This document shows, one piece after another, positions 1,340 to 46,757 of a DNA stretch of 64,000 nucleotides. Source of the stretch: an uncultured Gammaproteobacteria bacterium (GTDB lineage: Bacteria; Patescibacteriota; Patescibacteriia; Magasanikbacterales; GWA2-37-8). The position numbers and the translations under genes are program-made. The notes beneath the pieces are model-generated. The model was given only the letters and a program-made list of their open reading frames with translations. It was not told the DNA's origin and ran no database searches. The stretch covers positions 246 to 64,245 of the forward strand of contig CAYZGX010000005.1 in assembly GCA_964478235.1 (NCBI GenBank), given 5' to 3'. The stretch's first letter is position 1, and every line of letters begins with the position of its first letter.

Positions 1340-3130
1340 TTAGTCTACCCGCAGGTCATCAATCGTTGTGACCTGACCTGGAGAAAGTGGCTTTGGAGCA
1401 GTGTTTTCTGGGTTTTCAGGAGCTGGAGCTGGCGCCAAAACAGGGGCTGGAGGAGCTTTTTCCACCACAGGCATCGCTTGACTAAGAGATATCCCCTTTT
1501 GAGCGGTGTCTACCAGAAGAACCTTTTCTGGGGTGCCTTCAGGCGGTGTCATCGGCTTTTTAGGCTGAGAGTTACGGCGATCTGGCGGACGGTTGGCACC
1601 AGGTTTTTGGCCACCTCCCTGACGAGGCGGCTGGTTACCAGCTGGTTTGACCGGCGAAGCTGCTGCTGGTTTTGGAGGTTTTGCAAAGGTTGTAGAACGC
1701 AAATTAACGACTGGTGACGGTGCTGGCGGTGTTTTTGGCTTTTCTGGAGCCGGAACAACAGGCACACCATCGCCGTTTTCATCATCTTCGTCGGTCATAC
1801 CCGGAACAAGCCCGCTCCAACGCATGATTTTGTCTTCAATTTTTTCTCGAGCAGTTGCATAACGTTCGCGCGACACTCTGACAACTTTTTCTGAGCTATT
1901 AGTCGGGAAACCAATTGCTCCAAGCGTTTCAGCACTAAATGGTCGAGACGCCACACCGTCAATCATGAGCTTCAGATAGACTTGATACTTTGGCAAATTA
2001 ACTAAATCTTCTTCTACAAAAGTAGGGATAAATTCTTTAGCCAAAATCTCGGCGTCACTGGAACCAACTCGGAAAGTAACCATGGTACCCACATTGCCGA
2101 TAACCGCCGCCAACACCTTTTCATCCAACTGCTCCATATATTGGTGCGCCATGATGAGGTCTAAGCGGTATTTACGAGCTTCTGACAAAATATTTGCAAA
2201 ACTTTCAGTAGCAAAGTTCTGAAACTCGTCAACATACAAGAAAAAGTCATTGCGCTTGGCTTCGGGCAAATCTACGCGCTCCATCGCCGCTAGCTGCAGT
2301 TTGGTGATAAGCATACCACCGAGCAAACGGGAATTATCTTCACCAATACGACCCTTGGACAGGTTCATGATAAAAATCTTTTTCTCATCCATAATCTCAC
2401 GAATATTAATTCGTGATTTCACCTGCGCTACAATGTTACGAATAACTGAAGCCGACAAAAACTGACCGATCTTGTTTTGAATAGGCGCGACCGCTTCAGT
2501 GCGGAACTTTTCACTATAACCAGCAAATTCAGTTTGCCAGAAAGCTTTGACCACCGGATCTTTGAGCGCTTTGACCACTTTGTCGCGATAGTCTTCTTCG
2601 GCAAGCAAACGGTTGATACCAAGCAAAGTTGTGCCCGGATAATCCAACAGCGCCAAAATAGTGTTGTTGAGAATGTACTCCATACGAGCACTCCAGACAT
2701 CTGGCCAAATCTTTTTGAACACACCCATGAGGCCGGAAGCGACCAAATGACGATGCTCTGGATTGACGGTCTCTAGAATATTAAACCCAATCGGAAAGTT
2801 GATATCCGCTGGATTGAAATACACCACATCGTTGATACGGTTTGGTGGAACAAAATTAATAATCTTTTCAGCAAAATCACCGTGCGGATCAACCAAGCCG
2901 ACACCATGACCGGCGTAGATGTCGTTCAAAACCATGTTTTCAAGAAGCGTGGTCTTACCCATACCAGTTTTACCGACCACGTACATGTGACGGCGACGGT
3001 CATCAATCTTAATCCCGAATTTACGCTTTTGCGCCCGATAATTTGTGGCGGCAAAAAAATTAATGTCGGGATTGCTCACGATGGCTGGTTGTTCGGCTAT
3101 AGGTTGCTGGTCGGAATGAAGATCGCTCAT
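1340..3130 (-). CDS. type IV secretion/conjugation coupling-protein-like P-loop ATPase (TraD/TrwB/VirD4 family) with a long Pro/Ala-rich disordered C-terminal tail
   Basis: The Walker A block VVGKTGMGKTTLL followed by GLVDPHGDF matches the TrwB-type G-x-TG-x-GK-[ST] ... VDPNGD signature. YVDEFQNF is Walker-B-like. The last ~170 aa are low-complexity P/A/K-rich. Confidence 0.6.
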   Translation of the reverse strand: MSDLHSDQQPIAEQPAIVSNPDINFFAATNYRAQKRKFGIKIDDRRRHMYVVGKTGMGKTTLLENMVLNDIYAGHGVGLVDPHGDFAEKIINFVPPNRINDVVYFNPADINFPIGFNILETVNPEHRHLVASGLMGVFKKIWPDVWSARMEYILNNTILALLDYPGTTLLGINRLLAEEDYRDKVVKALKDPVVKAFWQTEFAGYSEKFRTEAVAPIQNKIGQFLSASVIRNIVAQVKSRINIREIMDEKKIFIMNLSKGRIGEDNSRLLGGMLITKLQLAAMERVDLPEAKRNDFFLYVDEFQNFATESFANILSEARKYRLDLIMAHQYMEQLDEKVLAAVIGNVGTMVTFRVGSSDAEILAKEFIPTFVEEDLVNLPKYQVYLKLMIDGVASRPFSAETLGAIGFPTNSSEKVVRVSRERYATAREKIEDKIMRWSGLVPGMTDEDDENGDGVPVVPAPEKPKTPPAPSPVVNLRSTTFAKPPKPAAASPVKPAGNQPPRQGGGQKPGANRPPDRRNSQPKKPMTPPEGTPEKVLLVDTAQKGISLSQAMPVVEKAPPAPVLAPAPAPENPENTAPKPLSPGQVTTIDDLRVD

Positions 3131-5415: not shown

Positions 5416-7620
5416 TTACTTAGTATACCGCCAGATACTAATTGTATCAAGCACTTGGGTGAGCGTCCCTACCCCCACACTGAGCGAGCTTGGTACTACC
5501 AAAAAACACTGATCAGCCCCCGTGGCCGACAAAGCTTTGTCCCAAGCTTCTTTGGTCGGGAGCGCGGTGAGAGATGTGTAGACCTCTTCAAGAACTGGTT
5601 GAGCAAAGTACTGATTTACCGGAAACCCGCCACCAATCACCGCTCGGCCAGTGACAGCTTCGAGAGCTAGGAGCGGATAGGTGCCGGCCACCACACATGG
5701 CTTGGCCGTGAGTGTATTTGAAACATACTTCATCGCTCGAAATTCATCAACACTGACAGTGCCGGTGTCAGGGCCAAGTGTATATGAGGCAATCATAGCC
5801 AGAGACGACAGCACAACAGCGCCAACAAGAGTACGCTGAACAAACGGCGTCTCGGCGCCATAACGAGAGACAAACGCTCGAGCCAAGAGAAGAACCATAA
5901 CCACGCTTACAAGCGCGAGTAAGCTGTCCAAGCGACGAGTAAAAATCTGCTCTCCCACCAACGCATAACGAGAAATAATGTATCCACCAAACAACGAAGT
6001 AGTAAGAACAGCCATAACCGTATGTGCTGGGCGCTTGGAGCGATATGACACTACCGTACCCCAAATCACAGCAACAAAGAAAACAACGGCATAGGCGACG
6101 AGCCACCAACGCCAGGTGGTGAGGAGTGTCGGTACAAACGAATAGCTCGGCACCTGATTAAATAAAATATTACCCGTGGCAATATCGTGCGGACGCGGGC
6201 CAGATGCTAGATAAAACGCTGAAAAGTTTCCAATAAGTTGCTGTATCTGCTGAAGCCAATTAATTGATGATGAAAATTGACTATATCGAGAAATAATTTC
6301 AATTGCTGGCAAAAGAATCACCCCCAACACCGTTACTTTTATCAAAACAGCCCGCTCCACAAAGCGAGACGAACGACGCGAAGCCAGAATTGCCTCAGCG
6401 GTAAACCAGGTAAACCAATACAGCACCGCAAATAAGCTGTAGGAAAAAATCGAAGCAAACCCAATAGCTGTAAGAAGTAGAAGTTGTTTTTTATGAGGAC
6501 TGCGGACACGCTCTAGTATAAGGATAAGCGATACAATAAAAAACACGAGCCCGAGATTGACTGGCAAACTAAACGAGCCAGCCGACATGAGCGCATAGGG
6601 CAAAAGGCTGAGCCAAGCGAGCGCCAAACGACCGCGCACCTTGAGCCCCAACACCGACCCAAGAGCATACATCAAAAACGGCAATAATACTGAAACCAAC
6701 ACCGGCCCAAGCCATATCATCAACATCAAGAGATTAATCCCGGTGGTTCTATTTACTAAAGAAAATAACGACCAAAACTGGCCGTAGGTGACAGAAGTGA
6801 GATATGACCCAAGATGAGGTGTTTCGTTCAAGACCGCTTGCACCATTGGTTTTTCCTGAATAACATTTTGAATAAATCCAATATGTCGCCAGCCATCAGC
6901 GCCATAAAGAAGCTCATGCGTGGCCGGCACATAGCTATGAAGCACTAGGCTCGATAATACCAAGAAAAATAATAACACCGACGCGCGAATACGCGATCCG
7001 ATAAGGAGACCTAAGATAACTATAATTCCACCAGCGACCGGCAAAAAGCCCGGAACAATTGTTTGCCACGGTGTGGTGACATGTCCGCCAGTACGACTTA
7101 TAACAAAAAGATAAACGGCGTCGAGCAGGAGCGCGAGGAGGATTACCACTCCAAAACTAGAGGCGAGCCCAACTGGTGTTTCAAAAGACAGTGTAGCCAG
7201 AGTCGTCTCCCCTGCTGTTGGCTCGGGCGCCTGACTACCAAGAAGAAACAACGCCAAAGAAACCAGAGCAAGCACACCAGCCCAGATGAGCGGCGTCAAA
7301 ACAGCTACCGAGAGAAGCGCTCCGGCCAAAGCAGTCACAAAAAACACCACCAAAAGCGAACTAATCAAGAAAAGCGACATTCCCCGTTTACCATGAAAAT
7401 AGACAACGATAAAAGACTGGACCGGCTGAGATACGACGGCAACATAGATAACCAAAGCCAAAATACCTACCAAACTCGGGACACTCGCCTCAAACGGCAT
7501 GGTGGCAAAAATGCCAAAAACAGCCACGAGACTGGCCAAAAAGTGAAACTTTTTAAAACGGTAGAGCATAAAAGGTATGCCGTAAGTATACCACGGAGGG
7601 CTCGAAAAGAAACAGTGCAC
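5416..7620 (-). CDS. large polytopic integral membrane protein (>=14 predicted TM helices), function unknown
   Basis: 734-aa ORF dominated by hydrophobic helices with a soluble C-terminal ~100 aa; no recognisable catalytic motif; maybe a glycosyltransferase-C/PMT-like fold. Confidence 0.55.
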   Translation of the reverse strand: MHCFFSSPPWYTYGIPFMLYRFKKFHFLASLVAVFGIFATMPFEASVPSLVGILALVIYVAVVSQPVQSFIVVYFHGKRGMSLFLISSLLVVFFVTALAGALLSVAVLTPLIWAGVLALVSLALFLLGSQAPEPTAGETTLATLSFETPVGLASSFGVVILLALLLDAVYLFVISRTGGHVTTPWQTIVPGFLPVAGGIIVILGLLIGSRIRASVLLFFLVLSSLVLHSYVPATHELLYGADGWRHIGFIQNVIQEKPMVQAVLNETPHLGSYLTSVTYGQFWSLFSLVNRTTGINLLMLMIWLGPVLVSVLLPFLMYALGSVLGLKVRGRLALAWLSLLPYALMSAGSFSLPVNLGLVFFIVSLILILERVRSPHKKQLLLLTAIGFASIFSYSLFAVLYWFTWFTAEAILASRRSSRFVERAVLIKVTVLGVILLPAIEIISRYSQFSSSINWLQQIQQLIGNFSAFYLASGPRPHDIATGNILFNQVPSYSFVPTLLTTWRWWLVAYAVVFFVAVIWGTVVSYRSKRPAHTVMAVLTTSLFGGYIISRYALVGEQIFTRRLDSLLALVSVVMVLLLARAFVSRYGAETPFVQRTLVGAVVLSSLAMIASYTLGPDTGTVSVDEFRAMKYVSNTLTAKPCVVAGTYPLLALEAVTGRAVIGGGFPVNQYFAQPVLEEVYTSLTALPTKEAWDKALSATGADQCFLVVPSSLSVGVGTLTQVLDTISIWRYTK

Positions 7621-10144: not shown

Positions 10145-10145
10145 A

Positions 10146-10180
10146 AAAATCCCTCGAAATTTTCGAGGGATTTTTGTTTG
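10146..10180. terminator. bidirectional rho-independent terminator between convergent recR and rplU
   Basis: AAAAAAATCCCTCGAAATTTTCGAGGGATTTTTGTTTG: 8-bp perfect stem, A-run upstream and T-run downstream. Confidence 0.8.
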
Positions 10181-10184
10181 AGAG

Positions 10185-10490
10185 TTAGGCAATCTTCACT
10201 TCTGTGAAACGCTGACGTTGACCATGTACTTTGTGGTAACGAACTTTGCGTTTGAACTTTTCAACACGGACAGTGCGATTCTTACCTTGCTTGACGAGGG
10301 TTGCTTTGACAGTAACACCTTCCAAGTATGGAGCGCCAACTTTTACATTAGAGCCATCATCGTTAGCGGTGAGGAGAACCTTATCAAAGGCCACCGAGCC
10401 ACCAGCTTCACCAAGGATTTTTTCGATTTTAAGAGTTTGACCGGAAGTAACAAGATATTGTTTACCGCCAGTAGCAATAACTGCGAGCAT
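10185..10490 (-). CDS. rplU: 50S ribosomal protein L21
   Basis: MLAVIATGGKQYLVTSGQTLKIEKI is the L21 signature; start at the internal ATG 10490. No rpmA follows. Confidence 0.9.
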   Translation of the reverse strand: MLAVIATGGKQYLVTSGQTLKIEKILGEAGGSVAFDKVLLTANDDGSNVKVGAPYLEGVTVKATLVKQGKNRTVRVEKFKRKVRYHKVHGQRQRFTEVKIA

Positions 10491-10623
10491 AAATAATGGA
10501 TAGCATGTACCCCGTCTAAGCCTGTCCAATTAAGATGGCAGCGGGAACATGAAAAATAACAATGTGCCCGTAGTATAAAGGAAGATACGCCCTTTGTCAA
10601 GCCTGTTTAGAGCCAAAAGGGTC

Positions 10624-11088
10624 TTACCGGGCTATCTCTACCCTATCCCCGATAATTAGCCCTAATTCACTAGCCAAACCAGCTCGAAGCTCAAGTACAG
10701 CATTAGCTTCGGCCCTCGGCCTATAGAGGAAGAGGTCGGCTTCGGCCACCCCCGGCTCCGGAGAGGCATTGGGGGCCATATCTACCACTACCCCACTATC
10801 AAGCCAGATAATATCTATTGGAAAACGCATATCCCGCATCACCATAGCCTGACGGCCTTTGAGCCCAAACGGGAACAGCATACCATCAACCGGATCCATT
10901 GAATCACGGTTGCTCCAACCGGTAAACTGCTGTTTATACGTCCTCGCCACATACACCGTCAGGTTTTTTTCACGCATCCGAACAACAGTCGTTTCCAAAC
11001 GACGATTAGAAAAATATGACACCACCACACCAACAAACAAAAGTGCCAAGACCACCGCATGCCATTTTTTGAACATCACTGGTTTCAT
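10624..11088 (-). CDS. DUF192 (COG1430) domain protein with N-terminal TM helix
   Basis: GMLFPF...MRDMRFPIDIIWLD...YRP...AVLEL.AG...IGDRVEI matches DUF192 conserved blocks. Confidence 0.75.
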   Translation of the reverse strand: MKPVMFKKWHAVVLALLFVGVVVSYFSNRRLETTVVRMREKNLTVYVARTYKQQFTGWSNRDSMDPVDGMLFPFGLKGRQAMVMRDMRFPIDIIWLDSGVVVDMAPNASPEPGVAEADLFLYRPRAEANAVLELRAGLASELGLIIGDRVEIAR

Positions 11089-12143
11089 ACTTTAAGGGTG
11101 CGAAGTTTAAACGACAAAATAATACCAACGACGAGCATAATGACGCTGATGAGCGCAATCAAAACGAGCTTACCAAAACTTTGCAAAAAAAGCGCCCCCA
11201 ACCCAAACACTGTAGCAGCGGTATAAAAAACCAAAATTACCTGACGCTCACTCCAACCAAGCTCCAAAAGTGCATAATGAAGATGTCGGCGATCACCCTG
11301 AAACACCGACTGCTTACGATAGACCCGCAAAATAATCACTCGCGCCAGATCAAGCATCGGCACAGCCAAAACCAAAAAAGCTGTCGCCACCTTGCTCCCT
11401 GCAATAATTGACAAAACAGCTAGAATAAAACCGAGAAACAAACTTCCCGACTCCCCCAAAAATAGTTTGGCTGGAGAAAAATTAAGCACCAAAAAACCGA
11501 GGCAGGCTCCGACAAAAATCAAAGCCAACAGCCCAACGTTTGGCTGGTAAAACTTGGTACTCATGGAAAGCGCAAAGATAATCAAAGAACCAATACTAAC
11601 AATTCCCGTAGCTAAACCGTCTAAGCCATCAACAATTTTAATGGTATACATCACCCCCATTATCCAGACAAATGCCAGCAGGCTCGGAAATAACACCGAG
11701 AGAGTGAGCGACGTAAGCTGATCAAGCGCCACCACCCCACCCCACGGATTAGTAACTTTATCAAGCACCACCCCACCAAACACGGTCACAAGAACGGCCA
11801 AGGACGTACCAACCAAGCGAGTGACTGGGCGCAATTTTAAAACGTCATCAAGAATACCAAGAATCAGGAGAAGCGTACTTCCCAAAAAAGCGGCGAGCAA
11901 CCGATCACGAAGAATATCAAACCCTAAAACCGGATAAACAAAGAGAAAAAAGCCTGCCACTGCCCAAAAACCAAGATACAAAGCAATCCCGCCAAGAAGC
12001 GGGACAGGCTGACGATGAAGATGACGCCCGTTGTCTGGGACATCAACCACTCGAAAACGACGAGCAACGCGCGCAACAATGAGCGACAAAAGCGCTACTA
12101 AAGCGACTGTAACCAGCCCAGCACTATACACAATCATATACAA
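11085..12143 (-). CDS. glycosyltransferase family 4 polyprenyl-phosphate HexNAc-1-phosphate transferase (WecA/TagO-like; MraY paralogue family)
   Basis: VDVPDNGRHLHRQPVPLLGGIALY resembles the WecA N-terminal motif, IVDGLDGLA is the DxxD-type motif, and FLGESGSLFLGF and DRRHLHYALLELGW are also shared with MraY. I scored it closer to WecA than to MraY. Confidence 0.7.
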   Translation of the reverse strand: MYMIVYSAGLVTVALVALLSLIVARVARRFRVVDVPDNGRHLHRQPVPLLGGIALYLGFWAVAGFFLFVYPVLGFDILRDRLLAAFLGSTLLLILGILDDVLKLRPVTRLVGTSLAVLVTVFGGVVLDKVTNPWGGVVALDQLTSLTLSVLFPSLLAFVWIMGVMYTIKIVDGLDGLATGIVSIGSLIIFALSMSTKFYQPNVGLLALIFVGACLGFLVLNFSPAKLFLGESGSLFLGFILAVLSIIAGSKVATAFLVLAVPMLDLARVIILRVYRKQSVFQGDRRHLHYALLELGWSERQVILVFYTAATVFGLGALFLQSFGKLVLIALISVIMLVVGIILSFKLRTLKV

Positions 12144-12146
12144 TAA

Positions 12147-14921
12147 CTAACGAGGCACCACCGTCATTACGCCTTCAGCACCCAAATGAACAGTGTCTCG
12201 TCGTCCAATCTTACCAGTGAGTAGTAATTCTGCCAACTGGTTCTCCACTCGTTCTTCCAGAGATCGGCGAAGCGGACGAGCCCCAAATTCTGGATCAAAA
12301 CCAACTCCCGCCAAAAATTCTAGAGCTGCATCATCAACTTCAAGCCCAATTCCTTTGGCTTCCAAATCCCGCGCCACTCGGCGAAGCATCAGCGAAGCAA
12401 TTTGTTTAATAGCCGATTTGGCAAGCGGTTTAAAGAGCACAATACCATCAAAACGATTGAGGAACTCAGGACGGAAGTAGTCTTTGAGCTCACCATGAAG
12501 CAAACGATCTTTAATTATATCACTCGACAGACCGGCTCGCATTTGTTCCTGGACATAGCTCGTGCCAGCGTTCGAGGTGGCAATAATAATAACATTGGTA
12601 AAATCAACTACTCGACCAGTTGAATCGGTGAGACGACCATCGTCCATGACTTGCAGAAAAACATTCAAAATATCTCGGTCAGCTTTTTCAATTTCATCAA
12701 GTAATAATAATGTAAACGGTGTACGACGAATCGCTTCCGTCAAAAGACCAGTCCCCTTTTCGCCCGGCGCCCCAATGAGACGGTACAAACTAGCCTTATC
12801 CTGGTATTCACTCATATCAAACCGCACCATTCTGTCTTCACCGCCAAAATAAACTTCGGCAATTGTTTTAGCGAGCTCAGTTTTGCCCACCCCAGTTGGC
12901 CCCAAGAATAAAAAGTTAGAAATCGGACGACTCTTGGAACGAATTTCAGCGCGAGCTCGGCGAAGGGCATTTGCCACCAACGTCACTGCTTCGTCTTGGC
13001 CAATCACGCGTTCATGAAGCGTGGTTTCAAGCGTCATAAGCTTGGTTGATTCATCGGCTGTCACGGTGGTCATCGGAATCTGGGTCTTTTGAGCAATCAC
13101 TGCACCAACTTCTTCGGCAGTCACAAAAGCATCTTTACCTTTTTTAGAACGAGTATAACTCCCCGCTTCGCTCATAATTTCTATCGCACTCCCTGGCAAA
13201 ATAGTATCTTTAATAAATCGCTTAGCGAGCTGAGCTGATTTCGCCAACGCATCATACGAATAAAAAACATCATGCTTATATTCCAAATGACCAGCGTTGG
13301 CTTCGAGCACTTGAATTGCCTGGTTCTCTTCCATTTCTTTAATCACCACACGCGAAAATACTGTCGCTAATTTAGAATTAGCAATATATTTGGTATAGGC
13401 TTCGGTTGTAGCAGTCGCAATCGTGAGAAATCGTCCACTGCCGAGATAATCAGCCATCGTACCAGCAACATCCAAACTTTGCCCGCCACCAGCCGACACT
13501 CCCATTAATTCCTGAATATTTTCAATCGTGAGAATAACATTACCAGCACGAGCAATTTCGTACATAATATTTTCAAGACGTTCCAAAGCACCAGCTGGCG
13601 TAGTACCAGCCAACAATGAGGATGAATTGAGGCGCACCATACGCTTATCAGCCAAACGAGCTGGCACTTTGTCTTCTACCATGAGTTCAGCAATGCCTTC
13701 AACAATACTTTTCTTGCCGACGCCATAATCACCAACCAACAGCACACTATTTTGACCACCTTCCACTACTTGGAAAATATTTTGAATCTCAACGTCGCGA
13801 GCAATACAAGCATTGGTGTGTCCAAATTGCGCGAGCATGGTAACATCTTCACTAAACTGATTCAAAAACGGCGTAGCCACAGCGGTCATTGCTCGATCCA
13901 TTCCATATTTAGAACGATGACGAGCCGACACTTGAAATTGCATATACTGACGATGGAGTCGCTCTTTGATTCGAGCCCACTCAATGCCGTTTTCCAGCTT
14001 ATCTTTGTCCAGCGCAAAATCATACAACACATCTTGAATTGACGATGATGAGCTCACTACTGCAAACAATAATTCCGCTGGCGTGACATATTCCTGACGA
14101 GCCAGATAGCCCGCTTCATAGGCTTGGAAAATAACCTGCGCCACTCCATCAGAAATAACTGGCGCAGTTTCGCGACCACCAGTCTTGGAATTAGCTTCAG
14201 CAAAAAACGGTGTCAATTTATCTTGGAGAGTTTTGACTGGAACCCCTAGGCGGATAAACAAAATACGCACTGACGGAATCGTCAAAAGCGCATACAGAAT
14301 ATGATAGACCGTCATTTTATTAAACATCTGCTCATCGGCCAAGGTATAGGCCACCCCAAGAGATTTGAGCGCGTCAGGCGTAAACGATTCGGTGATATTC
14401 ACCCGATCTTTAAGCGGAACACGAGTCGTATCTGTCCAAGCGGACAACCGCTCACTCGAAACATCTTTTGGTACACTGTCATAACCCAAATGTTCCACCA
14501 TTTGAGTCGCTGGCTTTTCTGAAATAATTCGATACACCAAATAGGAAAACAGCATGACACCCAACCAAAACAACACCACGATATACGCCGGCAAATACTG
14601 AAACCACTGCACAAAGGTCAAACCCATTGGCGCTGGTGAGGTTTTGAAAAACATCATCAAAGCAAAAAGCGCCCAGAGCCAAAGCGTCATTGCTAAAACA
14701 CCCACCACTACCTTGCGGATTTTGTTGGTGAGAAGGCGCGCATAAAAAAGCGCCAGATGATATCTGTCGAGCGGGTGGGCCCAATAAAACAATTTTCCAC
14801 GCGTCTTGTACGCTATGCTCAAACCATGACAATTTGGGCAGGTGCGCCACGAAACAACCCCAGTGGCATGACATGTTTCACAGAGCAAAAGTGGTAATGG
14901 TTCTCCTTGAGTAAACATCAT
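12147..14921 (-). CDS. membrane-anchored Clp/Hsp100-family AAA+ ATPase (ClpB/ClpC-like) with N-terminal zinc ribbon, 2-3 TM helices, Clp_N repeats, degenerate D1 and intact D2
   Basis: N-terminus CETCHATG...CPNCHG followed by hydrophobic helices. Clp_N-like repeats. D1 Walker A is GDYGVGKKS and the Walker B position reads ILTIENIQ (DE->EN). D2 is canonical: GPTGVGKTELAK, LLLLDEIEKA, sensor and arginine-finger region. I found no IGF/LGF ClpP-docking loop. Confidence 0.8.
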   Translation of the reverse strand: MMFTQGEPLPLLLCETCHATGVVSWRTCPNCHGLSIAYKTRGKLFYWAHPLDRYHLALFYARLLTNKIRKVVVGVLAMTLWLWALFALMMFFKTSPAPMGLTFVQWFQYLPAYIVVLFWLGVMLFSYLVYRIISEKPATQMVEHLGYDSVPKDVSSERLSAWTDTTRVPLKDRVNITESFTPDALKSLGVAYTLADEQMFNKMTVYHILYALLTIPSVRILFIRLGVPVKTLQDKLTPFFAEANSKTGGRETAPVISDGVAQVIFQAYEAGYLARQEYVTPAELLFAVVSSSSSIQDVLYDFALDKDKLENGIEWARIKERLHRQYMQFQVSARHRSKYGMDRAMTAVATPFLNQFSEDVTMLAQFGHTNACIARDVEIQNIFQVVEGGQNSVLLVGDYGVGKKSIVEGIAELMVEDKVPARLADKRMVRLNSSSLLAGTTPAGALERLENIMYEIARAGNVILTIENIQELMGVSAGGGQSLDVAGTMADYLGSGRFLTIATATTEAYTKYIANSKLATVFSRVVIKEMEENQAIQVLEANAGHLEYKHDVFYSYDALAKSAQLAKRFIKDTILPGSAIEIMSEAGSYTRSKKGKDAFVTAEEVGAVIAQKTQIPMTTVTADESTKLMTLETTLHERVIGQDEAVTLVANALRRARAEIRSKSRPISNFLFLGPTGVGKTELAKTIAEVYFGGEDRMVRFDMSEYQDKASLYRLIGAPGEKGTGLLTEAIRRTPFTLLLLDEIEKADRDILNVFLQVMDDGRLTDSTGRVVDFTNVIIIATSNAGTSYVQEQMRAGLSSDIIKDRLLHGELKDYFRPEFLNRFDGIVLFKPLAKSAIKQIASLMLRRVARDLEAKGIGLEVDDAALEFLAGVGFDPEFGARPLRRSLEERVENQLAELLLTGKIGRRDTVHLGAEGVMTVVPR

Positions 14922-14928
14922 AAGTTTC

Positions 14929-15357
14929 TCACCCTAAAAATGGCAAAATAAGACCGAGCACCACAATAAACGGCAACGTCACCCAGAAAGACACGCCAAA
15001 AATACACCCCATCGCAAACAACCCAAGAACGAGCGAACGAACAATCACTTGAAAAAACCGAATAACGAAGCTAATAACTTTTCCGGTGAAATCTCTTTGA
15101 CCATACATTGGTACAAAAATATTTTTGAGCCAGAGCCCCGGAGCAAGTCGCTGGTTGGCGCGACCAAGCCAAGCGACACACGATTTACCTGCATACGCGA
15201 GGCCGTGGGTATACCACCACAACGGAAAATACACTACATCAAGTAGTGCTTCGAGAAATAGTCGTTCAAAAAGTATCCAATACATAAGCTTGACTATAGT
15301 ATAGCACAAAAAAAGAGAATAAAAAAACGCCCCAACGGGCGTATCTTCTATCAACAA
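14929..15357 (-). CDS. small polytopic membrane protein, function unknown
   Basis: 142-aa hydrophobic ORF tightly packed between the ftsL-like gene and the Clp-like gene. Confidence 0.5.
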   Translation of the reverse strand: MLIEDTPVGAFFYSLFLCYTIVKLMYWILFERLFLEALLDVVYFPLWWYTHGLAYAGKSCVAWLGRANQRLAPGLWLKNIFVPMYGQRDFTGKVISFVIRFFQVIVRSLVLGLFAMGCIFGVSFWVTLPFIVVLGLILPFLG

Positions 15358-15720
15358 CTAGCGCTCTGCCACCGAGGTGCGTGGTGAGGTCTTAACAAAG
15401 GTGATGGAAGAAGCTGAGCGCATAGATAATTCGTTCAAACGCTTCTGAATACTAGCCATTGATTGATAGCTAGCCACTTCAGTGGAAAGTTTTTGCGTTT
15501 CTGAGGAAACTAAAGCGACTTTTTTCTCAAGACCATGAATAACATAGCCACTCGTAGACAGAGCACTGATCTGAAAGACGTAGCCAACTGAGAACACGAC
15601 AATAAGCGCAAGCATTATCAAGCGCGCCGGCAAACTAAACATCCACTGTGGCAACGACAAGGCGTCGGCCAAAGAAAGTAGATTGTTATATTGATACCGT
15701 AGTCGAGCCTCCAAAGACAT
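15358..15720 (-). CDS. ftsL: FtsL/DivIC-like cell division protein (septum formation initiator family)
   Basis: Short cytoplasmic N-terminus, single TM, coiled-coil then a small beta region; sits in the canonical position after rsmH. Confidence 0.6.
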   Translation of the reverse strand: MSLEARLRYQYNNLLSLADALSLPQWMFSLPARLIMLALIVVFSVGYVFQISALSTSGYVIHGLEKKVALVSSETQKLSTEVASYQSMASIQKRLNELSMRSASSITFVKTSPRTSVAER

Positions 15721-15723
15721 AGA

Positions 15724-16644
15724 CTAGTTTTTTATGAGCACCCGGAGCTTAGCGCTACGAGCACGTGGATTAGCTTCCAACTCTGCCTCGCTAGCTATCA
15801 CTGGTTTTTTATTGACCAGAGCAGCTTCGCGTTTCAAAGCTTTTGTTTTGTAAAAATGTTTAACGATTCTATCTTCGAGCGAATGGAAGGTGATGATCGC
15901 TAGGCGTCCACCTTTGGCCAACAGGTCAAAGGCTTGTGGCAAAACTTGCTTCACCACTTCCAACTCACGATTTGTTTCAATGCGAAGTGCTTGAAACACT
16001 TTCGTTGCCGGATGAATTCCACCAATCCAAGGAACTGCTTTATCGCTTTTTAATTTTGTTCGGTACACTTGCAAAATAATATCTACCAATTGCTTGGTGC
16101 GCTCAATCGGACCAGACCGACGAGCGACGGCGATTGCTTCAGCAATCTCTTTGCTCAAATTTTCTTCACCATATTGTTTAAATACGTGAATCAACTCAAA
16201 CACACTATAGGTATTGACGATAGTCGCGGCTGTTACTGGCTCGTCATCACTCCCAAGCTCAGGGTTATAGCGCATATCGAGCGGCTCATCACCGTCGAAG
16301 CTAAACCCTCTCCCCCGCTCCGCAAATTGCGGACTTGACCAACCAAGGTCAATCAAGATAGCGTCGGGTGCTGGTAATTTTTCGCGTGCCACAATCGCTT
16401 GCAGTGTTGAAAAGTTGTCCCGTGCAAATACGACTCGGTCACCAAAACGATACAAATGTTGTTTAGCACGAAGGAGTGATTCAGGATCAGCATCAATGCC
16501 GAGCAATTTACCTTGTGGGGCAGTTGCTTCAAGCATCGCTTCGCTGTGTCCACCATCACCAAGCGTGCAATCAATAACTGTTTCGTTGGTTTTGAGTTGT
16601 AATGATCCAAGGACTTCGGCTAGGAGAACAGGTACATGTCGCAT
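15724..16644 (-). CDS. rsmH: 16S rRNA (cytosine1402-N4)-methyltransferase RsmH (MraW)
   Basis: HVPVLL, IDCTLGDGGHS, DLGWSSPQF, FHSLEDRIVK are the RsmH motifs. Confidence 0.95.
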   Translation of the reverse strand: MRHVPVLLAEVLGSLQLKTNETVIDCTLGDGGHSEAMLEATAPQGKLLGIDADPESLLRAKQHLYRFGDRVVFARDNFSTLQAIVAREKLPAPDAILIDLGWSSPQFAERGRGFSFDGDEPLDMRYNPELGSDDEPVTAATIVNTYSVFELIHVFKQYGEENLSKEIAEAIAVARRSGPIERTKQLVDIILQVYRTKLKSDKAVPWIGGIHPATKVFQALRIETNRELEVVKQVLPQAFDLLAKGGRLAIITFHSLEDRIVKHFYKTKALKREAALVNKKPVIASEAELEANPRARSAKLRVLIKN

Positions 16645-16664
16645 ACTTCAAGAGTTCGCTTAGC

Positions 16665-17096
16665 TTAGACGCCAAGTTCGGCCATTCGTTCAGCGATAGA
16701 TCCGCTCGCCGCCTCCGTTTGTCCTTTATACTGAGCCCACGTTTTGCTATCCCATAGCTCTAACCGGTTGTATAGACCGGCGACAACCACCTCTTTTGAC
16801 AGACGTGCAAATTGACGAAGGTATTCAGGCAGGATGATTCTCCCCTGCTTGTCTACTTCAACGTCCATAGCGCCAGCTAACATAAGACGAGCAAACGCTC
16901 GACTGTCAGCTTGACTGATAGGCAGACTAGCCAATTTCTCGGCCAGCTTCTCCCATTCCGTCTTGGTGTACAAAAAGAGACAATTGTCTAATCCACGAGT
17001 GACCACAGCACCCTTCGACAAATCACGACGAAATTTGACCGGAATGGCCATTCGTCCTTTATCGTCCAGGTTGTGACTATACTCGCCGATAAACAT
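16665..17096 (-). CDS. mraZ: transcriptional regulator MraZ
   Basis: Two DXXXR-type repeats (LDDKGRMAIP / VDKQGRIILP); 143 aa; first gene of the dcw cluster. Confidence 0.95.
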   Translation of the reverse strand: MFIGEYSHNLDDKGRMAIPVKFRRDLSKGAVVTRGLDNCLFLYTKTEWEKLAEKLASLPISQADSRAFARLMLAGAMDVEVDKQGRIILPEYLRQFARLSKEVVVAGLYNRLELWDSKTWAQYKGQTEAASGSIAERMAELGV

Positions 17097-17203: not shown

Positions 17204-17270
17204 TTTCACCACTTTTCACCACTTACAACCATTTTATACCACTATTCAACACCCGTCAACACACTTCACC
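17204..17270 (-). promoter_or_regulatory. candidate MraZ operator: about 7 direct repeats of GTGGTG/GTGTTG with 10-bp periodicity, 110-175 bp upstream of mraZ
   Basis: Plus strand shows CACCAC at 17207, 17217, (17228), 17237, 17247, 17257, 17267 spaced exactly 10 nt. MraZ proteins are known to bind phased direct GTG-containing repeats upstream of their own gene. Confidence 0.6.
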
Positions 17271-17282
17271 GCAGTTATTCAA

Positions 17283-17323
17283 GAAAAAACAACAAAAAAG
17301 CCCCGAAAACGATGTTTCGGGGC
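17283..17323 (-). terminator. rho-independent terminator downstream of the beta-CASP hydrolase gene
   Basis: GCCCCGAAACATCGTTTTCGGGGC followed by TTTTTTGTTGTTTTTTC on the minus strand. Confidence 0.8.
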
Positions 17324-17338
17324 TGTGGACAAGTAATT

Positions 17339-18788: not shown

Positions 18789-19484
18789 ATGCCACGTAAT
18801 CCTATCGACTCGGTTGAAATTGTTGAGCCGCCCATTCGCGAATTAACAAAAACACGATCCTCTTTCAAACGCGGGTGCGTCACCGGCTGTTTTTTCATTC
18901 TTATTCTTGGCGTCGCCACTGTCAGTGGTATTAAATTCCTTATCGGCGCCGGCCCGAGCACTTTCAAAAGTGTCCCGTCGATATTTCCAAAAGATATTCC
19001 TATTTATGATAAAGATGCGATTGAAAATATCACCTTTATCCCTGGAAAATATAAATACCGAAGCACCGAAATTGCCGCTTTTTTTCCTAAGATTTTATTA
19101 TCTCCAATTATTTTGCGCATCCAAGGCGTGAACGCTCCGACCCCAACCACCACCGAACAGTCGGCGTTACGCGGGCTATGGCGCATGATTTCAACTCCGG
19201 TGAGTGATTTATCAGACACCATCCACGTTGAATGGAAAAATATTGACGCTGAGCCAACCTTTGTCTATTCCTATTACAAAAAAGAGTTAACCAAAAAAGA
19301 TTACACCATCACCAACGAAGTCAGAAGCAAAACCGAACAACGCTTTTTGTTTAGTCGCGAAGATGGTATTAACGGCTTTCTTTTGGTAGAAGGCGACGAA
19401 GAAGCTAAGCCAGGCACCGATTACGCCGCCCTGATGGTCAATATTCCTCACAAACTTCTTACTTCCCCTTCACTCGATCGCTAG
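18789..19484 (+). CDS. hypothetical membrane-anchored protein
   Basis: 231-aa ORF with a single N-terminal TM (CFFILILGVATVSGIKFLIGAG); no recognisable domain. Confidence 0.5.
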   Translation: MPRNPIDSVEIVEPPIRELTKTRSSFKRGCVTGCFFILILGVATVSGIKFLIGAGPSTFKSVPSIFPKDIPIYDKDAIENITFIPGKYKYRSTEIAAFFPKILLSPIILRIQGVNAPTPTTTEQSALRGLWRMISTPVSDLSDTIHVEWKNIDAEPTFVYSYYKKELTKKDYTITNEVRSKTEQRFLFSREDGINGFLLVEGDEEAKPGTDYAALMVNIPHKLLTSPSLDR

Positions 19485-25815: not shown

Positions 25816-26685
25816 TTAGAAAGTACCACAACCAGCTTGAGCGGTAGCGATAGCGGCATTGCCGACACTAACTTCAGTACCAAAGCCAGGACCAAAGGAT
25901 GAATTGCTGAGGACAGTCTGACATTCTGCTGGAGGGGTGTTAAACGCCCCGCAGATAGCCTGCTTCACTGCTTCTGGAGTACGAGCCACCGAAGCCTCTA
26001 CACCGTTGATAATGAGCGTTGGAGAGCCTTGGACGCCATACTGGTTGTTGAGCTCCTCTTGAAGCGGATACAGTGGGTATTGACCACTGAGCCAAGTGTT
26101 TTGATCGTTGTATTTGGTAGTAATAGCAAATTTCTTATCTGTTCGAGAAATACAACTGTTCAAAGTTGTCTGGTTTACTCCAGTTGATTGCAAACATTTC
26201 TTATAATCAGCTTCAGCACCAGTGTTCTGACCAGCCCCAAAGAAACATTTCAAATATGCTTGGAATTTAGCTGGCTGTTCAGATTGAATACAGTACTGAC
26301 GAGTATTTTCATCAATTTCTTTTTTACCATGCATGATATATGACACGAATTTCACATCCATATCAGCTTTGTTCTTGAGAAGCTCCCAAGCTGGCACATA
26401 AGCTTTTTCCATTTGCAAACCATATGGGCAGTAGGACATAACAAACAGCTCTACTTTTGGTTTGTCGGATTTTGGCACCACTGGTGCTGGAGCGCTTGGA
26501 GCAGCTGGTTGAGCGGCGGTCGGTGCTGGAGCGGTGGCAACTTTAAAAGTATCACTCTTTGATAAAGCCGAAACACCTAAAACAACAAAACCGACAGTTC
26601 CAAGAGTGAGAATCCCACCGACCACCCCAAGAATAAGGGCGCTTTTCGGATCAAGGAGTTCAAAAAAACTTTTCTGCTGTTCCAT
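25816..26685 (-). CDS. membrane-anchored thioredoxin-fold thiol-disulfide oxidoreductase (DsbA-like)
   Basis: TM anchor, Pro/Ala linker, CPYG active-site CxxC (FVMSYCPYGLQ), several additional Cys pairs; start at ATG 26685. Confidence 0.7.
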   Translation of the reverse strand: MEQQKSFFELLDPKSALILGVVGGILTLGTVGFVVLGVSALSKSDTFKVATAPAPTAAQPAAPSAPAPVVPKSDKPKVELFVMSYCPYGLQMEKAYVPAWELLKNKADMDVKFVSYIMHGKKEIDENTRQYCIQSEQPAKFQAYLKCFFGAGQNTGAEADYKKCLQSTGVNQTTLNSCISRTDKKFAITTKYNDQNTWLSGQYPLYPLQEELNNQYGVQGSPTLIINGVEASVARTPEAVKQAICGAFNTPPAECQTVLSNSSFGPGFGTEVSVGNAAIATAQAGCGTF

Positions 26686-26695
26686 AAGGAAAAAA

Positions 26696-42248: not shown

Positions 42249-42280
42249 AAAATCTCCCCGAGTCGGGGAGATTTTTCTTT
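42246..42280. terminator. bidirectional rho-independent terminator between convergent rnhA and dnaJ
   Basis: AAAAAATCTCCCCGAGTCGGGGAGATTTTTCTTTT. Confidence 0.85.
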
Positions 42281-43359: not shown

Positions 43360-43362
43360 ACC

Positions 43363-43791: not shown

Positions 43792-43858
43792 AGTATGACA
43801 AGCTACTAAGTAAACAGCCAACCCCGACAAGTGTCGGGGGCAGCGTCTCATCAGTATA

Positions 43859-45757: not shown

Positions 45758-45775
45758 ACAGTGTGTAATAAGTAA

Positions 45776-46219: not shown

Positions 46220-46238
46220 ATATAAAAAATTAAATGAA

Positions 46239-46751: not shown

Positions 46752-46757
46752 ACGGGT

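What the first reader, a model, noticed from the sequence alone, without database searches (positions are those of the whole stretch)
12147..14921. Membrane-anchored, zinc-ribbon-fused ClpB/ClpC-like AAA+ protein with an inactivated D1 ring
The N-terminus has a C4 zinc ribbon (CETCHATG...CPNCHG) and 2-3 TM helices. These are fused to Clp_N repeats and two AAA+ modules. D1 has Walker A GVGKKS and a Walker B position reading IENIQ (DE replaced by EN). D2 is fully canonical. No IGF/LGF ClpP-binding loop is visible. A membrane-tethered Hsp100 with only one active ring, encoded inside the dcw operon, is not a described configuration. It could act as a division/envelope-associated unfoldase, or as an FtsH-like quality-control factor lacking a protease domain.
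Basis: partly seen in the sequence, partly recalled or inferred. Interest (0 to 1): 0.6.

Follow-up and report, generated by a model that had tools for sequence, protein, structure and literature searches.

The report
Membrane-anchored Clp-like ATPase with partner protein
This is a real, widely conserved but undescribed variant of the Clp/Hsp100 protein-remodelling ATPases in ultra-small Patescibacteria: it is anchored in the membrane, has one dead motor ring and no normal substrate-gripping loops, and is always encoded next to a small membrane protein and usually next to cell-wall synthesis genes.

Summary
The 924-aa ORF (12147-14921, minus strand) is real. Its N-terminal extension is genuine: four near-invariant Cys and two TM helices are conserved in over 120 homologue clusters.

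D1 is dead family-wide. Walker A is GK[K/R/M][S/T], Walker B DE is [H/N/E]-N, the Arg fingers are lost, and the pore-loop Tyr is lost. There is no M-domain and no extended ClpP-docking loop.

- D2 keeps all ATPase motifs, but its GYVG pore loop is shortened by 4 aa to G-E-K-G, with no aromatic in 121/121 close homologues.
- A 118-aa helical-hairpin membrane protein (14929-15285) lies directly upstream in 85/85 fetched loci, including relatives with only 22-28% N-terminal identity.
- The pair sits beside mraY (67/85 loci) or ftsW. One relative encodes a Clp::MraY fusion.

Best reading: a ClpP-independent, D2-powered, membrane-tethered two-component remodelling machine. It probably serves the membrane steps of wall synthesis or division and probably does not use classical threading.

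Verdict: a new variant of a known kind. The client and the mechanism are inferred.

The parts
12147..14921 (-). Gene for the 924-aa zinc-ribbon / 2-TM / Clp_N / D1 / D2 Hsp100-like ATPase (stop codon at 12147-12149)
   Evidence: AF2 model: pLDDT 83.4, pTM 0.70. Foldseek matches ClpC/ClpB protomers with TM ~0.8.
14817..14888 (-). C4 zinc ribbon, aa 12-35 (C14, C17, C28, C31). Two CxxCxGxG-like half-sites.
   Evidence: The four Cys are near-invariant. Two CxxC motifs occur in 104/121 close and 55/70 distant homologues. There is a sub-threshold hit to DnaJ_CXXCXGXG (E 0.013).
14715..14816 (-). Conserved juxtamembrane segment, aa 36-69 (consensus R-G-x-W-L-Y-W-x-Y-P-L-T-R-Y-H-L). A beta-hairpin followed by the start of the long helix that becomes TM1.
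   Evidence: Mean top-residue frequency is 0.61.
14646..14714 (-). TM helix 1, about aa 70-92
   Evidence: Hydropathy peak 2.36. It lies within AF2 helix 53-94.
14520..14588 (-). TM helix 2, about aa 112-134. It is preceded by a short, variable, nearly uncharged external loop (aa 93-111).
14019..14438 (-). Clp_N-type helical N-domain, aa 162-301
   Evidence: TIGR02639 (ClpA) aligns from aa 186. PF02861 is recorded for homologues. AF2 shows about 10 helical segments.
13872..14018 (-). Family-specific, strongly conserved pre-D1 segment, aa 302-350. It contains a 30-residue helix and the motif S-K-x-G-M-D-R-A-M-T-A-V-A-T-P.
   Evidence: Conservation is 0.74.
13137..13871 (-). D1 AAA+ module, aa 351-595. 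It is catalytically degenerate but strongly conserved.
13707..13733 (-). D1 Walker A, aa 397-405: G-D-Y-G-V-G-K-K-S. The Mg-ligand Thr is replaced by K/R/M across the family.
13518..13538 (-). D1 Walker B position, aa 462-468: V-I-L-T-I-E-N. DE is replaced by [H/N/E]-N.
   Evidence: DE occurs in 0/121 close and 0/70 distant homologues.
12150..13136 (-). D2 AAA+ module plus D2-small domain, aa 596-924. ATPase motifs are intact: GPTGVGKT, LLLDEIEK, TSN, NRFD, GAR.
   Evidence: PF07724 E 5.8e-52 and PF10431 E 1.4e-23. The motif columns are invariant.
12744..12773 (-). D2 pore-loop 1, aa 717-726: G-A-P-G-E-K-G-T-G-L. It is 4 aa shorter than GAPPGYVG and has no aromatic residue.
   Evidence: Gapped alignment to ClpC. 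No aromatic in 0/121 close homologues.
12528..12539 (-). Position of the ClpP-docking tripeptide in ClpC/ClpA, aa 795-798: R-A-G-L. Here it is a 4-residue inter-helix turn.
14929..15285 (-). Partner gene: a 118-aa helical-hairpin membrane protein with no Pfam family. Its stop codon is 7 nt before the ATPase start codon. The true start is Met25 of the 142-aa ORF 14929-15357.
   Evidence: AF2 pLDDT is 96.2. It lies directly upstream of the ATPase in 85/85 loci and in L086-L088.
15327..15342 (-). GC-rich hairpin followed by a T-run, between the ftsL-like gene and the partner gene. It is a possible attenuator or terminator. It lies inside the over-long 142-aa ORF call, which supports the shorter partner start.
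   Evidence: This is a consensus scan only.
11085..12143 (-). mraY (phospho-MurNAc-pentapeptide translocase). It starts 3 nt after the ATPase stop codon.
   Evidence: PF00953 E 5.4e-29. It is downstream of the ATPase in 67/85 loci.
10624..11088 (-). DUF192 gene, overlapping the mraY end by 4 nt. It is a conserved operon member.
   Evidence: 64/85 loci
15358..17096 (-). Upstream dcw genes: mraZ (16665-17096), rsmH (15724-16644) and an ftsL-like 120-aa single-TM gene (15358-15720).
   Evidence: Pfam hits for MraZ and MraW. The ftsL-like label rests on position and architecture only. Present in 69, 70 and 58 of 85 loci respectively.

Best explanation
The gene encodes a Patescibacteria-specific member of the class-I Hsp100/Clp ATPases that has been rebuilt into a membrane machine. 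In what follows, shown steps are separated from inferred ones.

Topology (inferred from hydropathy and charge):
- A cytoplasmic DnaJ-type C4 zinc knuckle and a TM hairpin tether it to the inner face of the membrane.
- As in FtsH, the N-terminal (entry) face of the presumed hexamer would therefore look at the membrane.

D1 (loss of motifs is shown; its role is inferred):
- D1 is a conserved pseudo-ATPase ring.
- It has lost the Mg-ligand Thr, both Walker B acidic residues, the Arg fingers and the pore-loop Tyr.
- It most likely serves as an assembly or regulatory scaffold.
- It may bind nucleotide without Mg, with the K/R at the Thr position compensating.

D2 (shown):
- D2 is the only motor.
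- All of its ATPase motifs are invariant.

ClpP independence (inferred):
- There is no extended docking loop.
- There is also no M-domain for DnaK coupling.

Partner (genetic coupling is shown; physical complex is inferred):
- The ATPase works as an obligate two-gene module with the 118-aa protein encoded 7 nt upstream.
- That protein is a membrane-embedded helical hairpin.
- Its strongly basic cytoplasmic stalk carries an invariant tip, P-G-L-W-L-x-N-I-F-V-P-M-Y-G-Q.

Clients (inferred from gene order and one fusion):
- The clients are most likely the integral-membrane enzymes or divisome proteins of the lipid-linked steps of wall synthesis: MraY, FtsW and an FtsL-like protein.

Mechanism (inferred):
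- In this lineage both pore loops lack aromatic residues.
- I therefore infer that D2 ATP cycles drive assembly, disassembly or activation of these membrane complexes.
- This would resemble Torsin or SpoVK, rather than processive threading into a protease.

The N-terminal extension is genuine:
- The Cys, the juxtamembrane motif and the TM helices are conserved.
- There is a 7-nt spacer with a GGGTGAG Shine-Dalgarno-like sequence before the ATG.
- The N-terminal 350 aa alone finds 207 clusters, many of them 870-940 aa long.

D1 is dead but under selection:
- DE is present in 0/191 homologues.
- Mean top-residue frequency (column conservation) in D1 is 0.73.

D2 is active:
- The motif columns are invariant.

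Pore loops:
-. Only 12/70 distant relatives keep a D2 pore-loop aromatic.

No ClpP loop:
- The tripeptide sits in a 4-residue turn between helices 787-795 and 800-809 at pLDDT ~82.
- In distant relatives the residue after the Gly is polar or charged.
- No clpP was found among the 51 window ORFs scanned (nearly all non-nested ORFs of at least 100 aa).

Partner:
- It is homologous across all loci.
- It is adjacent in 85/85 loci and in three more distant loci.
- Gaps or overlaps between partner and ATPase are at most 10-11 nt.
- The AF2 hairpin model has pLDDT 96.
- Charge distribution is 8 K/R versus 1 D/E in aa 31-83.

Link to wall synthesis:
- mraY is downstream in 67/85 loci.
- It is also downstream in Parcubacteria-type relatives that lack mraZ, rsmH and ftsL.
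- Where mraY is not downstream, ftsW/rodA is.
- P0175 is a natural Clp::MraY fusion. It joins at the cytoplasmic loop before MraY TM2, which is topologically consistent.

Precedents:
- TorsinA lacks aromatic pore loops yet is a functional membrane-associated Clp-like ATPase (PMC5425593).
- The AAA+ protein SpoVK activates MurG for lipid II synthesis (PMC13598258, citing Delerue 2024).
Against: - No experiment or interaction prediction links the ATPase to the partner, MraY or FtsW. Gene order and a single fusion, found in one assembly, are circumstantial.
- One relative (L005) has the pair with no wall-synthesis gene nearby.
- 12/70 distant relatives keep a PPG[Y/F] D2 pore loop. Threading may therefore be ancestral and still used in part of the family. 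A non-aromatic loop does not strictly exclude translocation.
- Whether these genomes carry clpP could not be tested.
- The G-[L/V/I] at the ClpP-loop position is kept in about 100/121 close homologues.
- Hexamer formation and orientation relative to the membrane are assumed. The C-terminal MraY fusion would require D2 to be near the membrane as well, which sits awkwardly with a simple FtsH-like orientation.
Confidence: 0.5

Rival explanations
1. It is a membrane-localised ClpA/ClpC-type unfoldase that delivers membrane or divisome proteins to ClpP. That would make it a two-piece functional analogue of FtsH.
For: - Databases name the family 'ATP-dependent Clp protease ATP-binding subunit'.
- The architecture without an M-domain is ClpA-like.
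- A-G-L aligns with the F-A-G-F of S. aureus ClpC. G-[L/V/I] is kept in most close homologues.
Against: - The tripeptide sits in a 4-residue helix-helix turn instead of a long flexible loop.
- Its first position is A/Q/N.
- In distant relatives the residue after the Gly is polar or charged, so the motif is not conserved there.
- Both pore loops lack the aromatic residue needed to thread substrate into ClpP.
- No clpP was found among the 51 window ORFs scanned.
- Scores are far below the ClpA and ClpB equivalog cut-offs.
Confidence: 0.1
2. It is a general membrane-protein quality-control extractase or holdase, comparable to Msp1/ATAD1 or to protease-less FtsH. It would have no special link to wall synthesis, and the dcw/mraY neighbourhood would be inherited gene order.
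For: - It has an N-terminal TM anchor and an FtsH-like topology.
- The DnaJ-type zinc knuckle could bind non-native chains.
- L005 lacks any wall-synthesis neighbour.
- Many unrelated housekeeping genes (rplU, recR, dnaB) are also syntenic around it.
Against: - Extraction by known AAA+ dislocases depends on aromatic pore loops (established knowledge of AAA+ dislocases), which are absent here.
- mraY or ftsW adjacency persists where the upstream dcw genes have been replaced by tgt or ATP-synthase genes.
- There is one Clp::MraY fusion.
Confidence: 0.2
3. It is the lineage's ClpB-type disaggregase, merely tethered to the membrane, and cooperates with the DnaK/DnaJ/GrpE system encoded in the same window.
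For: - The best NCBIfam hit is ClpB (545.6 bits).
- dnaK, dnaJ, hsp20 and hrcA lie 27-32 kb away in the window.
Against: - There is no M-domain, which ClpB needs for Hsp70 coupling according to established knowledge.
- There are no pore-loop tyrosines.
- D1 is dead.
- The score is less than half the ClpB cut-off of 1232.
- The gene lies in a wall-synthesis operon, not in the heat-shock cluster.
Confidence: 0.05
4. The N-terminal extension is an artefact of a mis-called start, or of fusing two genes.
For: None found.
Against: - The four Cys, the juxtamembrane motif and both TM helices are conserved in frame in >100 homologues from independent assemblies.
- The upstream gene ends 7 nt before the ATG.
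- The AF2 model is confident over aa 10-135.
Confidence: 0.01

Closest known systems
ClpA (class-I Hsp100, ClpP partner)
   Same: Both have a Clp_N N-domain, D1, D2 and a D2-small domain, with no M-domain. The protein aligns to TIGR02639 in a single end-to-end stretch (aa 186-911).
   Different: - The score of 526.8 is below the 993 cut-off.
- There is no IGL docking loop.
- D1 is dead.
- There are no pore-loop tyrosines.
- It has an added zinc ribbon and TM hairpin.
- It has a dedicated membrane partner.
ClpC / ClpE / ClpB
   Same: These are the best sequence and fold matches among solved structures: ClpC at 1.2e-124, and Foldseek TM ~0.8 to ClpC1 and ClpB protomers. ClpE, and also ClpX, carry an N-terminal zinc-binding domain (established knowledge).
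   Different: - It lacks the M-domain of ClpB, ClpC and ClpE.
- It lacks the VGF-type loop.
- The zinc element is a DnaJ-like CxxCxGxG pair and is followed by TM helices.
- None of these relatives is membrane-integral.
FtsH
   Same: It has an N-terminal two-TM anchor that places an AAA+ ring at the cytoplasmic face of the membrane. In both, the entry face would be toward the membrane.
   Different: - FtsH has a single classic-clade AAA module with an aromatic pore loop and a fused M41 protease.
- The protein here has two HCLR/Clp-type modules, no protease and no aromatic pore loop.
- It is not a homologous architecture.
Torsin ATPases with LAP1/LULL1
   Same: Both are Clp/Hsp100-D2-related ATPases that are membrane-associated and lack aromatic pore loops. 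Torsin depends on transmembrane cofactor proteins (PMC5425593).
   Different: - Torsins are single-module, ER-luminal and eukaryotic, and they lack their own Arg finger.
- Here the D2 Arg finger (R823) is invariant.
- The partner here is a small helical hairpin, not a degenerate AAA fold.
SpoVK (sporulation AAA+ chaperone that activates MurG)
   Same: It is a precedent for an AAA+ ATPase acting on an enzyme of the lipid-linked peptidoglycan precursor pathway at a membrane (PMC13598258).
   Different: SpoVK is a soluble single-module AAA+ protein of Bacillota. No homology beyond the AAA+ fold is implied. The client link here is only inferred from gene order.
Two-ring AAA+ proteins with one inactive ring (NSF D2, PEX1/PEX6 D1, p97 D1) and degenerate Hsp100s (plant SMAX1/D53)
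   Same: One ring is retained as a structural, non-hydrolysing scaffold (established knowledge). SMAX1 appears among the sequence matches.
   Different: These belong to different clades and cellular roles. None combines a dead D1 with a TM anchor and the loss of both pore-loop aromatics.

Membership tests
Class-I Hsp100/Clp ATPases (ClpA/B/C superfamily) | Clp_N N-domain, two AAA+ modules (D1 with AAA_lid_9; D2 of the AAA_2 type) and a ClpB_D2-small domain | tested here: met
   - PF07724 5.8e-52, PF10431 1.4e-23 and PF17871 3.3e-11.
- The ClpA model aligns over aa 186-911.
- Foldseek matches ClpC/ClpB protomers.
Class-I Hsp100/Clp ATPases | Aromatic pore-loop-1 residues in D1 (K-Y-R) and D2 (G-Y-V-G), used for substrate threading | tested here: not met
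   - D1 reads T-T-P-A.
- D2 reads G-E-K-G with a 4-aa deletion.
- 0/121 close homologues have an aromatic in either loop.
Class-I Hsp100/Clp ATPases | Two hydrolysis-competent nucleotide sites (Walker A GKT, Walker B DE, Arg fingers in both rings) | tested here: not met
   D2 meets this. In D1, GKT is GK[K/R/M], DE is [H/N/E]-N, and RR is [T/N/S]-V.
ClpB (TIGR03346) | Score above the equivalog cut-off, and a long coiled-coil M-domain between D1 and D2 | tested here: not met
   The score is 545.6 against a cut-off of 1232.1, and the match is split into two stretches. No residues correspond to the M-domain.
ClpA (TIGR02639) | Score above the equivalog cut-off | tested here: not met
   The score is 526.8 against a cut-off of 993.15.
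ClpP-dependent Clp ATPases (ClpA/ClpC/ClpE/ClpX) | A flexible surface loop carrying a conserved [LIV]-G-[FL] tripeptide that docks into ClpP | tested here: not met
   - A-G-L lies in a 4-residue inter-helix turn at pLDDT ~82.
- Position 1 is A/Q/N.
- The motif is not conserved in 70 distant relatives.
ClpP-dependent Clp ATPases | Co-occurrence with clpP in the same genome | not testable with these tools
   Only the 64-kb window (no clpP found among the ORFs scanned) and flanks of at most 10 kb in other genomes could be read.
ClpG / ClpK stand-alone disaggregases | NCBIfam exception-model cut-off of 1900 bits | tested here: not met
   The scores are 450.5 and 439.1 bits.
FtsH | A single AAA module followed by an M41 zinc-protease domain | tested here: not met
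   There is no Peptidase_M41 hit, and there are two Clp-type modules instead. Only the N-terminal two-TM topology is analogous.
DnaJ cysteine-rich zinc-finger domain (PF00684) | Repeated CxxCxGxG motifs scoring above the Pfam gathering threshold | tested here: inconclusive
   The motifs are C-E-T-C-H-A-T-G and C-P-N-C-H-G-L-S. The family consensus is CxxCx[GSA][TS]G...CxxCxG. The Pfam hit is E 0.013 at 16.1 bits against a cut-off of 32.7.
Proposed new family: ZnR-TM-Clp plus hairpin partner module | Partner gene immediately upstream (at most ~10 nt or overlapping) of a ZnR/2-TM/dead-D1 Clp gene | tested here: met
   This holds in 85/85 loci and in L086-L088. The window spacer is 7 nt.

The most novel reading that the evidence does not exclude
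The ATPase and its hairpin partner may form a dedicated membrane-embedded AAA+ machine of Patescibacteria. It would control the lipid-linked stage of peptidoglycan synthesis, acting on MraY and/or FtsW by assembly, activation or turnover. It would use a non-threading D2 motor. The partner's basic coiled-coil stalk with its invariant aromatic tip would act in trans as the missing regulatory (M-domain-like) element, or as the coupling rod between the ring and the client. If true, this would be a previously unknown mode of wall-synthesis control and a new mechanistic class within Hsp100.
Probability: 0.25. Interest if true: 0.8.

Novelty: new variant of a known kind. Interest (0 to 1): 0.65.

Why it matters
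Hsp100/Clp ATPases are textbook soluble threading machines with two active rings and tyrosine pore loops. This family breaks several of those rules:
- It is integral to the membrane.
- It keeps a dead D1 ring under purifying selection.
- It has lost the gripping residues in both rings while keeping a pristine D2 ATPase.
- It is genetically locked to a small membrane protein of unknown fold family.

It is also one of the most stably positioned genes next to mraY or ftsW in a huge, uncultured, reduced-genome radiation whose division and envelope biology is almost unknown.

If the link to MraY or FtsW is real, it identifies a lineage-specific regulator of an essential, drug-targeted pathway. It would also provide a natural test case for how Clp-type motors can work without threading.

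At minimum, several hundred database entries named 'Clp protease ATP-binding subunit' probably have nothing to do with ClpP.

Tried and rejected
- **Mis-called start.** Rejected because of in-frame conservation of the N-terminus in >100 homologues and the 7-nt spacer.
- **ClpP-docking loop.** I took the A-G-L aligned to ClpC F-A-G-F seriously. I rejected it on loop length in the model and lack of conservation in distant relatives.
- **Membership of ClpB, ClpA, ClpG or ClpK.** Rejected on curated cut-offs.
- **Pfam, NCBIfam and Foldseek-PDB searches for the partner.** There was no Pfam family. The fold matches were only non-significant generic helical hairpins, all with E > 3.
- **The afdb50 fold library.** It was unavailable.
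- **Pfam hit PF20030 listed for some homologues.** It turned out to be a weak P-loop match (bpMoxR) in D1, not an N-terminal domain.
- **Literature.** Eight full-text searches found no description of a TM-anchored Hsp100 or of this gene pair. The lipocone paper that mentions Patescibacteria and ClpP was irrelevant.
- **clpP census in the genomes.** This was not possible. No tool reads whole genomes, and searching with a generic ClpP would not target these lineages, so I ran no further search on it.
- **First MAFFT run.** It timed out and was repeated with faster settings.

Full report
**1. The observation**

The ORF at 12147-14921 on the minus strand is real and encodes 924 aa.
- A 100%-identical protein exists in public data. 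More than 120 further clusters at 50-96% identity exist, nearly all 850-935 aa long (one listed hit is a 733-aa fragment).
- Where these are named, they come from Candidatus Magasanikbacteria or Patescibacteria and are called 'ATP-dependent Clp protease ATP-binding subunit'.
- Pfam finds AAA_2 (E 5.8e-52), ClpB_D2-small (1.4e-23) and AAA_lid_9 (3.3e-11).
- NCBIfam aligns ClpA end to end over aa 186-911. However, ClpA (526.8 vs 993), ClpB (545.6 vs 1232) and ClpG/ClpK (about 450 vs 1900) are all far below their curated cut-offs.
- The best solved relatives are ClpC, ClpB and ClpE.
- An AlphaFold2 model built on 72 homologues has pLDDT 83.4 and pTM 0.70. It superposes on ClpC1 and ClpB protomers with TM about 0.8.

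**2. The N-terminal extension is genuine**

In a 121-sequence alignment:
- C14, C17, C28 and C31 are present in 105-106 of the ~106 sequences that have an N-terminus.
- The following segment (consensus RGxWLYWxYPLTRYHL) is strongly conserved.
- Two hydrophobic helices follow.

Hydropathy gives two TM segments, at about aa 70-92 and 108-134, not three.
- The N-terminal 69 residues carry 8 K/R against 3 D/E.
- The loop between the helices is short, variable and almost uncharged.
- The zinc ribbon and the ATPase are therefore both cytoplasmic.

The cysteine motifs read CxxCx[GSA][TS]G ... CxxCxG. That is one DnaJ-type zinc centre, and Pfam's DnaJ_CXXCXGXG model hits it only below threshold (E 0.013).

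The upstream gene stops 7 nt before the ATG, with a GGGTGAG Shine-Dalgarno-like sequence.

**3. D1 is dead, family-wide**

Direct alignment to ClpC and column counts show four losses:
- Walker A GEPGVGKTA becomes G-[D/E]-x-G-V-G-K-[K/R/M]-[S/T], so the Mg-ligand Thr is replaced.
- Walker B ILFIDE becomes I-L-x-I-[H/N/E]-N, with N468 in 118/121 sequences.
- The pore loop K-Y-R becomes T-P-A.
- The Arg-finger pair RR becomes [T/N/S]-V.

No homologue has DE at the D1 Walker B position: 0/121 close and 0/70 distant. D1 is nevertheless as conserved as the rest of the protein, with a mean top-residue frequency of 0.73. It is therefore kept for a structural or regulatory role.

A basic residue has been gained exactly where the Mg ligand sat, and both acidic Walker B residues have been lost. 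This suggests Mg-free nucleotide binding, but that is my inference only.

There is no M-domain. ClpC residues 407-459 have no counterpart.

**4. D2 is an intact ATPase but not 'fully canonical'**
- GPTGVGKT, LLLDEIEKA, TSN, NRFD and GAR are invariant.
- The pore-loop-1 segment GAPPGYVG(x)5GG is replaced by G-A-P-G-E-K-G-T-G, with a 4-residue deletion.
- No close homologue has an aromatic residue there (0/121).
- Among 70 distant full-length relatives, only 12 keep a PPG[Y/F] loop. The rest carry short, variable, non-aromatic loops.
- In this lineage, then, both rings lack the residues that Clp/Hsp100 proteins use to grip and thread substrates.

**5. The ClpP loop**
- ClpC has a loop at least 7 residues longer at this point.
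- In the model, the tripeptide lies in a 4-residue turn between helices 787-795 and 800-809 at pLDDT about 82.
- Its first position is A/Q/N.
- In distant relatives the residue after the Gly is often T, K, E, R or D.
- I conclude there is no ClpP-docking loop.
- Whether the genomes carry clpP could not be tested. No clpP was found among the 51 window ORFs scanned, which cover nearly all non-nested ORFs of at least 100 aa.

**6.

The ORF immediately upstream (14929-15357) is over-called. Homologues start at its Met25, which gives a 118-aa protein at 14929-15285. A GC-rich hairpin with a T-run lies in the discarded part.

Properties of this protein:
- It has no Pfam family and is 'hypothetical' in 199 clusters.
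- It has invariant residues, including F-P-L-W-W-Y and P-G-L-W-L-x-N-I-F-V-P-M-Y-G-Q.
- AlphaFold2 models it as a two-helix hairpin (helices 2-47 and 66-117) at pLDDT 96.2, with the invariant motif at the tip.
- Residues 31-83 carry 8 K/R against 1 D/E, and residues 84-118 are purely hydrophobic.
- I read it as a membrane-embedded hairpin with a basic cytoplasmic stalk.
- Foldseek finds nothing significant for it.

Distribution and linkage:
- A scan of 185,579 species genomes with its profile found 571 genomes that encode it.
- In all 85 loci then in hand (80 from that scan plus 5 fetched earlier), the zinc-ribbon/TM/Clp gene is the next gene downstream.
- The same holds in relatives whose N-terminal region is only 22-28% identical to the window protein and that are named Parcubacteria.
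- Spacers are at most about 10 nt, or the genes overlap.
- This is an obligate two-gene module.

**7. Genomic context**

The window order is mraZ, rsmH, ftsL-like, partner, ATPase, mraY, DUF192. Across the 85 loci, the counts are:

| Gene | Loci with it |
|---|---|
| mraZ | 69 |
| rsmH | 70 |
| mraY | 67 |
| DUF192 | 64 |

- Where mraY is not downstream, the next genes are a 117-aa membrane protein and ftsW/rodA (PF01098, E 1e-96).
- In distant relatives the upstream dcw genes are replaced by tgt or by the ATP-synthase operon. The order partner, ATPase, mraY persists in L004, L086 and L087. Only L005 lacks any wall gene.
- In L088 the ATPase and MraY are one 1231-aa protein (PF00953 at aa 968-1124). 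MraY TM1 is deleted, so the junction falls in the cytoplasmic loop before TM2, which is topologically consistent.
- This fusion is a single case in one assembly and could be an error.
- The invariant feature is therefore the partner. The next most stable link is to the integral-membrane enzymes of lipid-linked peptidoglycan synthesis.

**8. How it most likely works**

Shown:
- The protein is a membrane-anchored Hsp100 with only D2 catalytically competent, no M-domain and no ClpP loop.
- It has no aromatic pore loops in this lineage.
- It is strictly genetically coupled to a hairpin membrane protein.
- It is frequently coupled to mraY or ftsW.

Inferred:
- It forms a ring at the inner face of the membrane together with the partner.
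- It uses D2 ATP cycles to assemble, activate, disassemble or otherwise remodel membrane complexes of wall synthesis or division, rather than threading proteins into a protease.

Precedents for the two unusual aspects exist:
- TorsinA is a membrane-associated Clp-like ATPase without aromatic pore loops that depends on transmembrane cofactors (PMC5425593).
- The AAA+ protein SpoVK activates MurG for lipid II synthesis (PMC13598258).

I put 0.5 on this package overall. Within it:
- The architectural statements are at about 0.85-0.9.
- The partner complex is at about 0.7.
- The MraY/FtsW client link is at about 0.4.
- Non-threading action is at about 0.4.

Rivals:
- A general membrane quality-control extractase (0.2).
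- A ClpP-dependent membrane unfoldase (0.1).
- A tethered ClpB-like disaggregase (0.05).
- An annotation artefact (0.01).

**9. Comparison with what is known, and novelty**

The protein is a member of the class-I Hsp100 superfamily by fold and domain order. It fails the tests for ClpA, ClpB, ClpC/E, ClpG/K and FtsH. It also fails two features usually taken as defining for functional Hsp100 unfoldases: two active rings and aromatic pore loops.

Eight full-text searches found no description of a transmembrane Hsp100 or of this gene pair. The library does not cover subscription journals, so prior description cannot be fully excluded.

I rate it a new variant of a known kind, with interest 0.65. 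The anatomy would surprise AAA+ specialists, and the family is large and well conserved. But its function is inferred only from sequence, models and gene order.

Noticed in passing
L088:4240-7935 (contig CAYXZR010000015.1, GCA_964470025.1): This is a 1231-aa natural fusion of the Clp-like ATPase with MraY. MraY TM1 is deleted, so the junction falls in a cytoplasmic loop. It is a single occurrence and could be an assembly error or a genuine Rosetta-stone fusion.
   Followed up: partly
window 5416-7620 (-): A 734-aa ORF has no Pfam hit. It is kept in synteny next to dnaB in relatives, at 701-714 aa, also with no Pfam hit (L001 17075-19219, L002 20613-22718).
   Followed up: no
window 42280-47447 (-): This is a heat-shock cluster: an hrcA-like gene (46758-47447), hsp20 (45776-46387), dnaK (43859-45757), a 203-aa ORF with no Pfam hit in the grpE position (43363-43974), and dnaJ (42280-43359). 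The Clp-like gene is not part of it.
   Followed up: partly
L001:3504-9596: In one relative, a 2030-aa FG-GAP / PG_binding_1 protein is inserted between the ftsL-like gene and the partner gene. The partner-ATPase pair is left intact.
   Followed up: no
L012, L014, L018, L031, L040, L045, L046, L048, L057, L083 (about 11130-11580 in most): A conserved 117-aa membrane protein with no Pfam hit lies between the ATPase gene and ftsW/rodA, in the sub-clade that lacks mraY at this position.
   Followed up: partly
record titles of L006, L010, L012 and many others; L047: Many of the MAG contigs carrying this Patescibacteria operon are titled 'uncultured Gammaproteobacteria bacterium', and one is titled 'Candidatus Udaeobacter sp.'. 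Gene content and identity to Magasanikbacteria loci indicate mislabelled or mis-binned records.
   Followed up: no
window 14479-14874 (-) and 12193-12480, 12562-12852, 13752-14042 (+): ORFs of 95-131 aa lie inside the Clp-like gene in other frames or on the other strand. They are low-complexity or Ser/Arg-rich translations and are almost certainly not genes.
   Followed up: no
window 1340-3130 (-), 63057-63938 (-), 41841-42248 (+): Three other genes were noted: a TrwB/VirD4-like coupling-protein homologue, an Abi_C (abortive infection) domain protein, and a stand-alone RNase H / RVT_3 protein. They may be mobile-element or defence related.
   Followed up: no
window 17299-17324 (-) and 17231-17259 (-); 10145-10175 (-): A strong terminator-like hairpin lies after the beta-CASP gene and is followed by a promoter-like site upstream of mraZ. 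Another strong hairpin lies after the ORF at 10185-10529, which sits in the position rplU holds in relatives. Together they bracket the dcw-like block. These come from consensus scans only.
   Followed up: no
window 49056-50246 and 50212-51615 (-); 25816-26745 (-); 18789-19484 (+); 61445-62530 (-): Several ORFs of 230-470 aa have no Pfam family.
   Followed up: no
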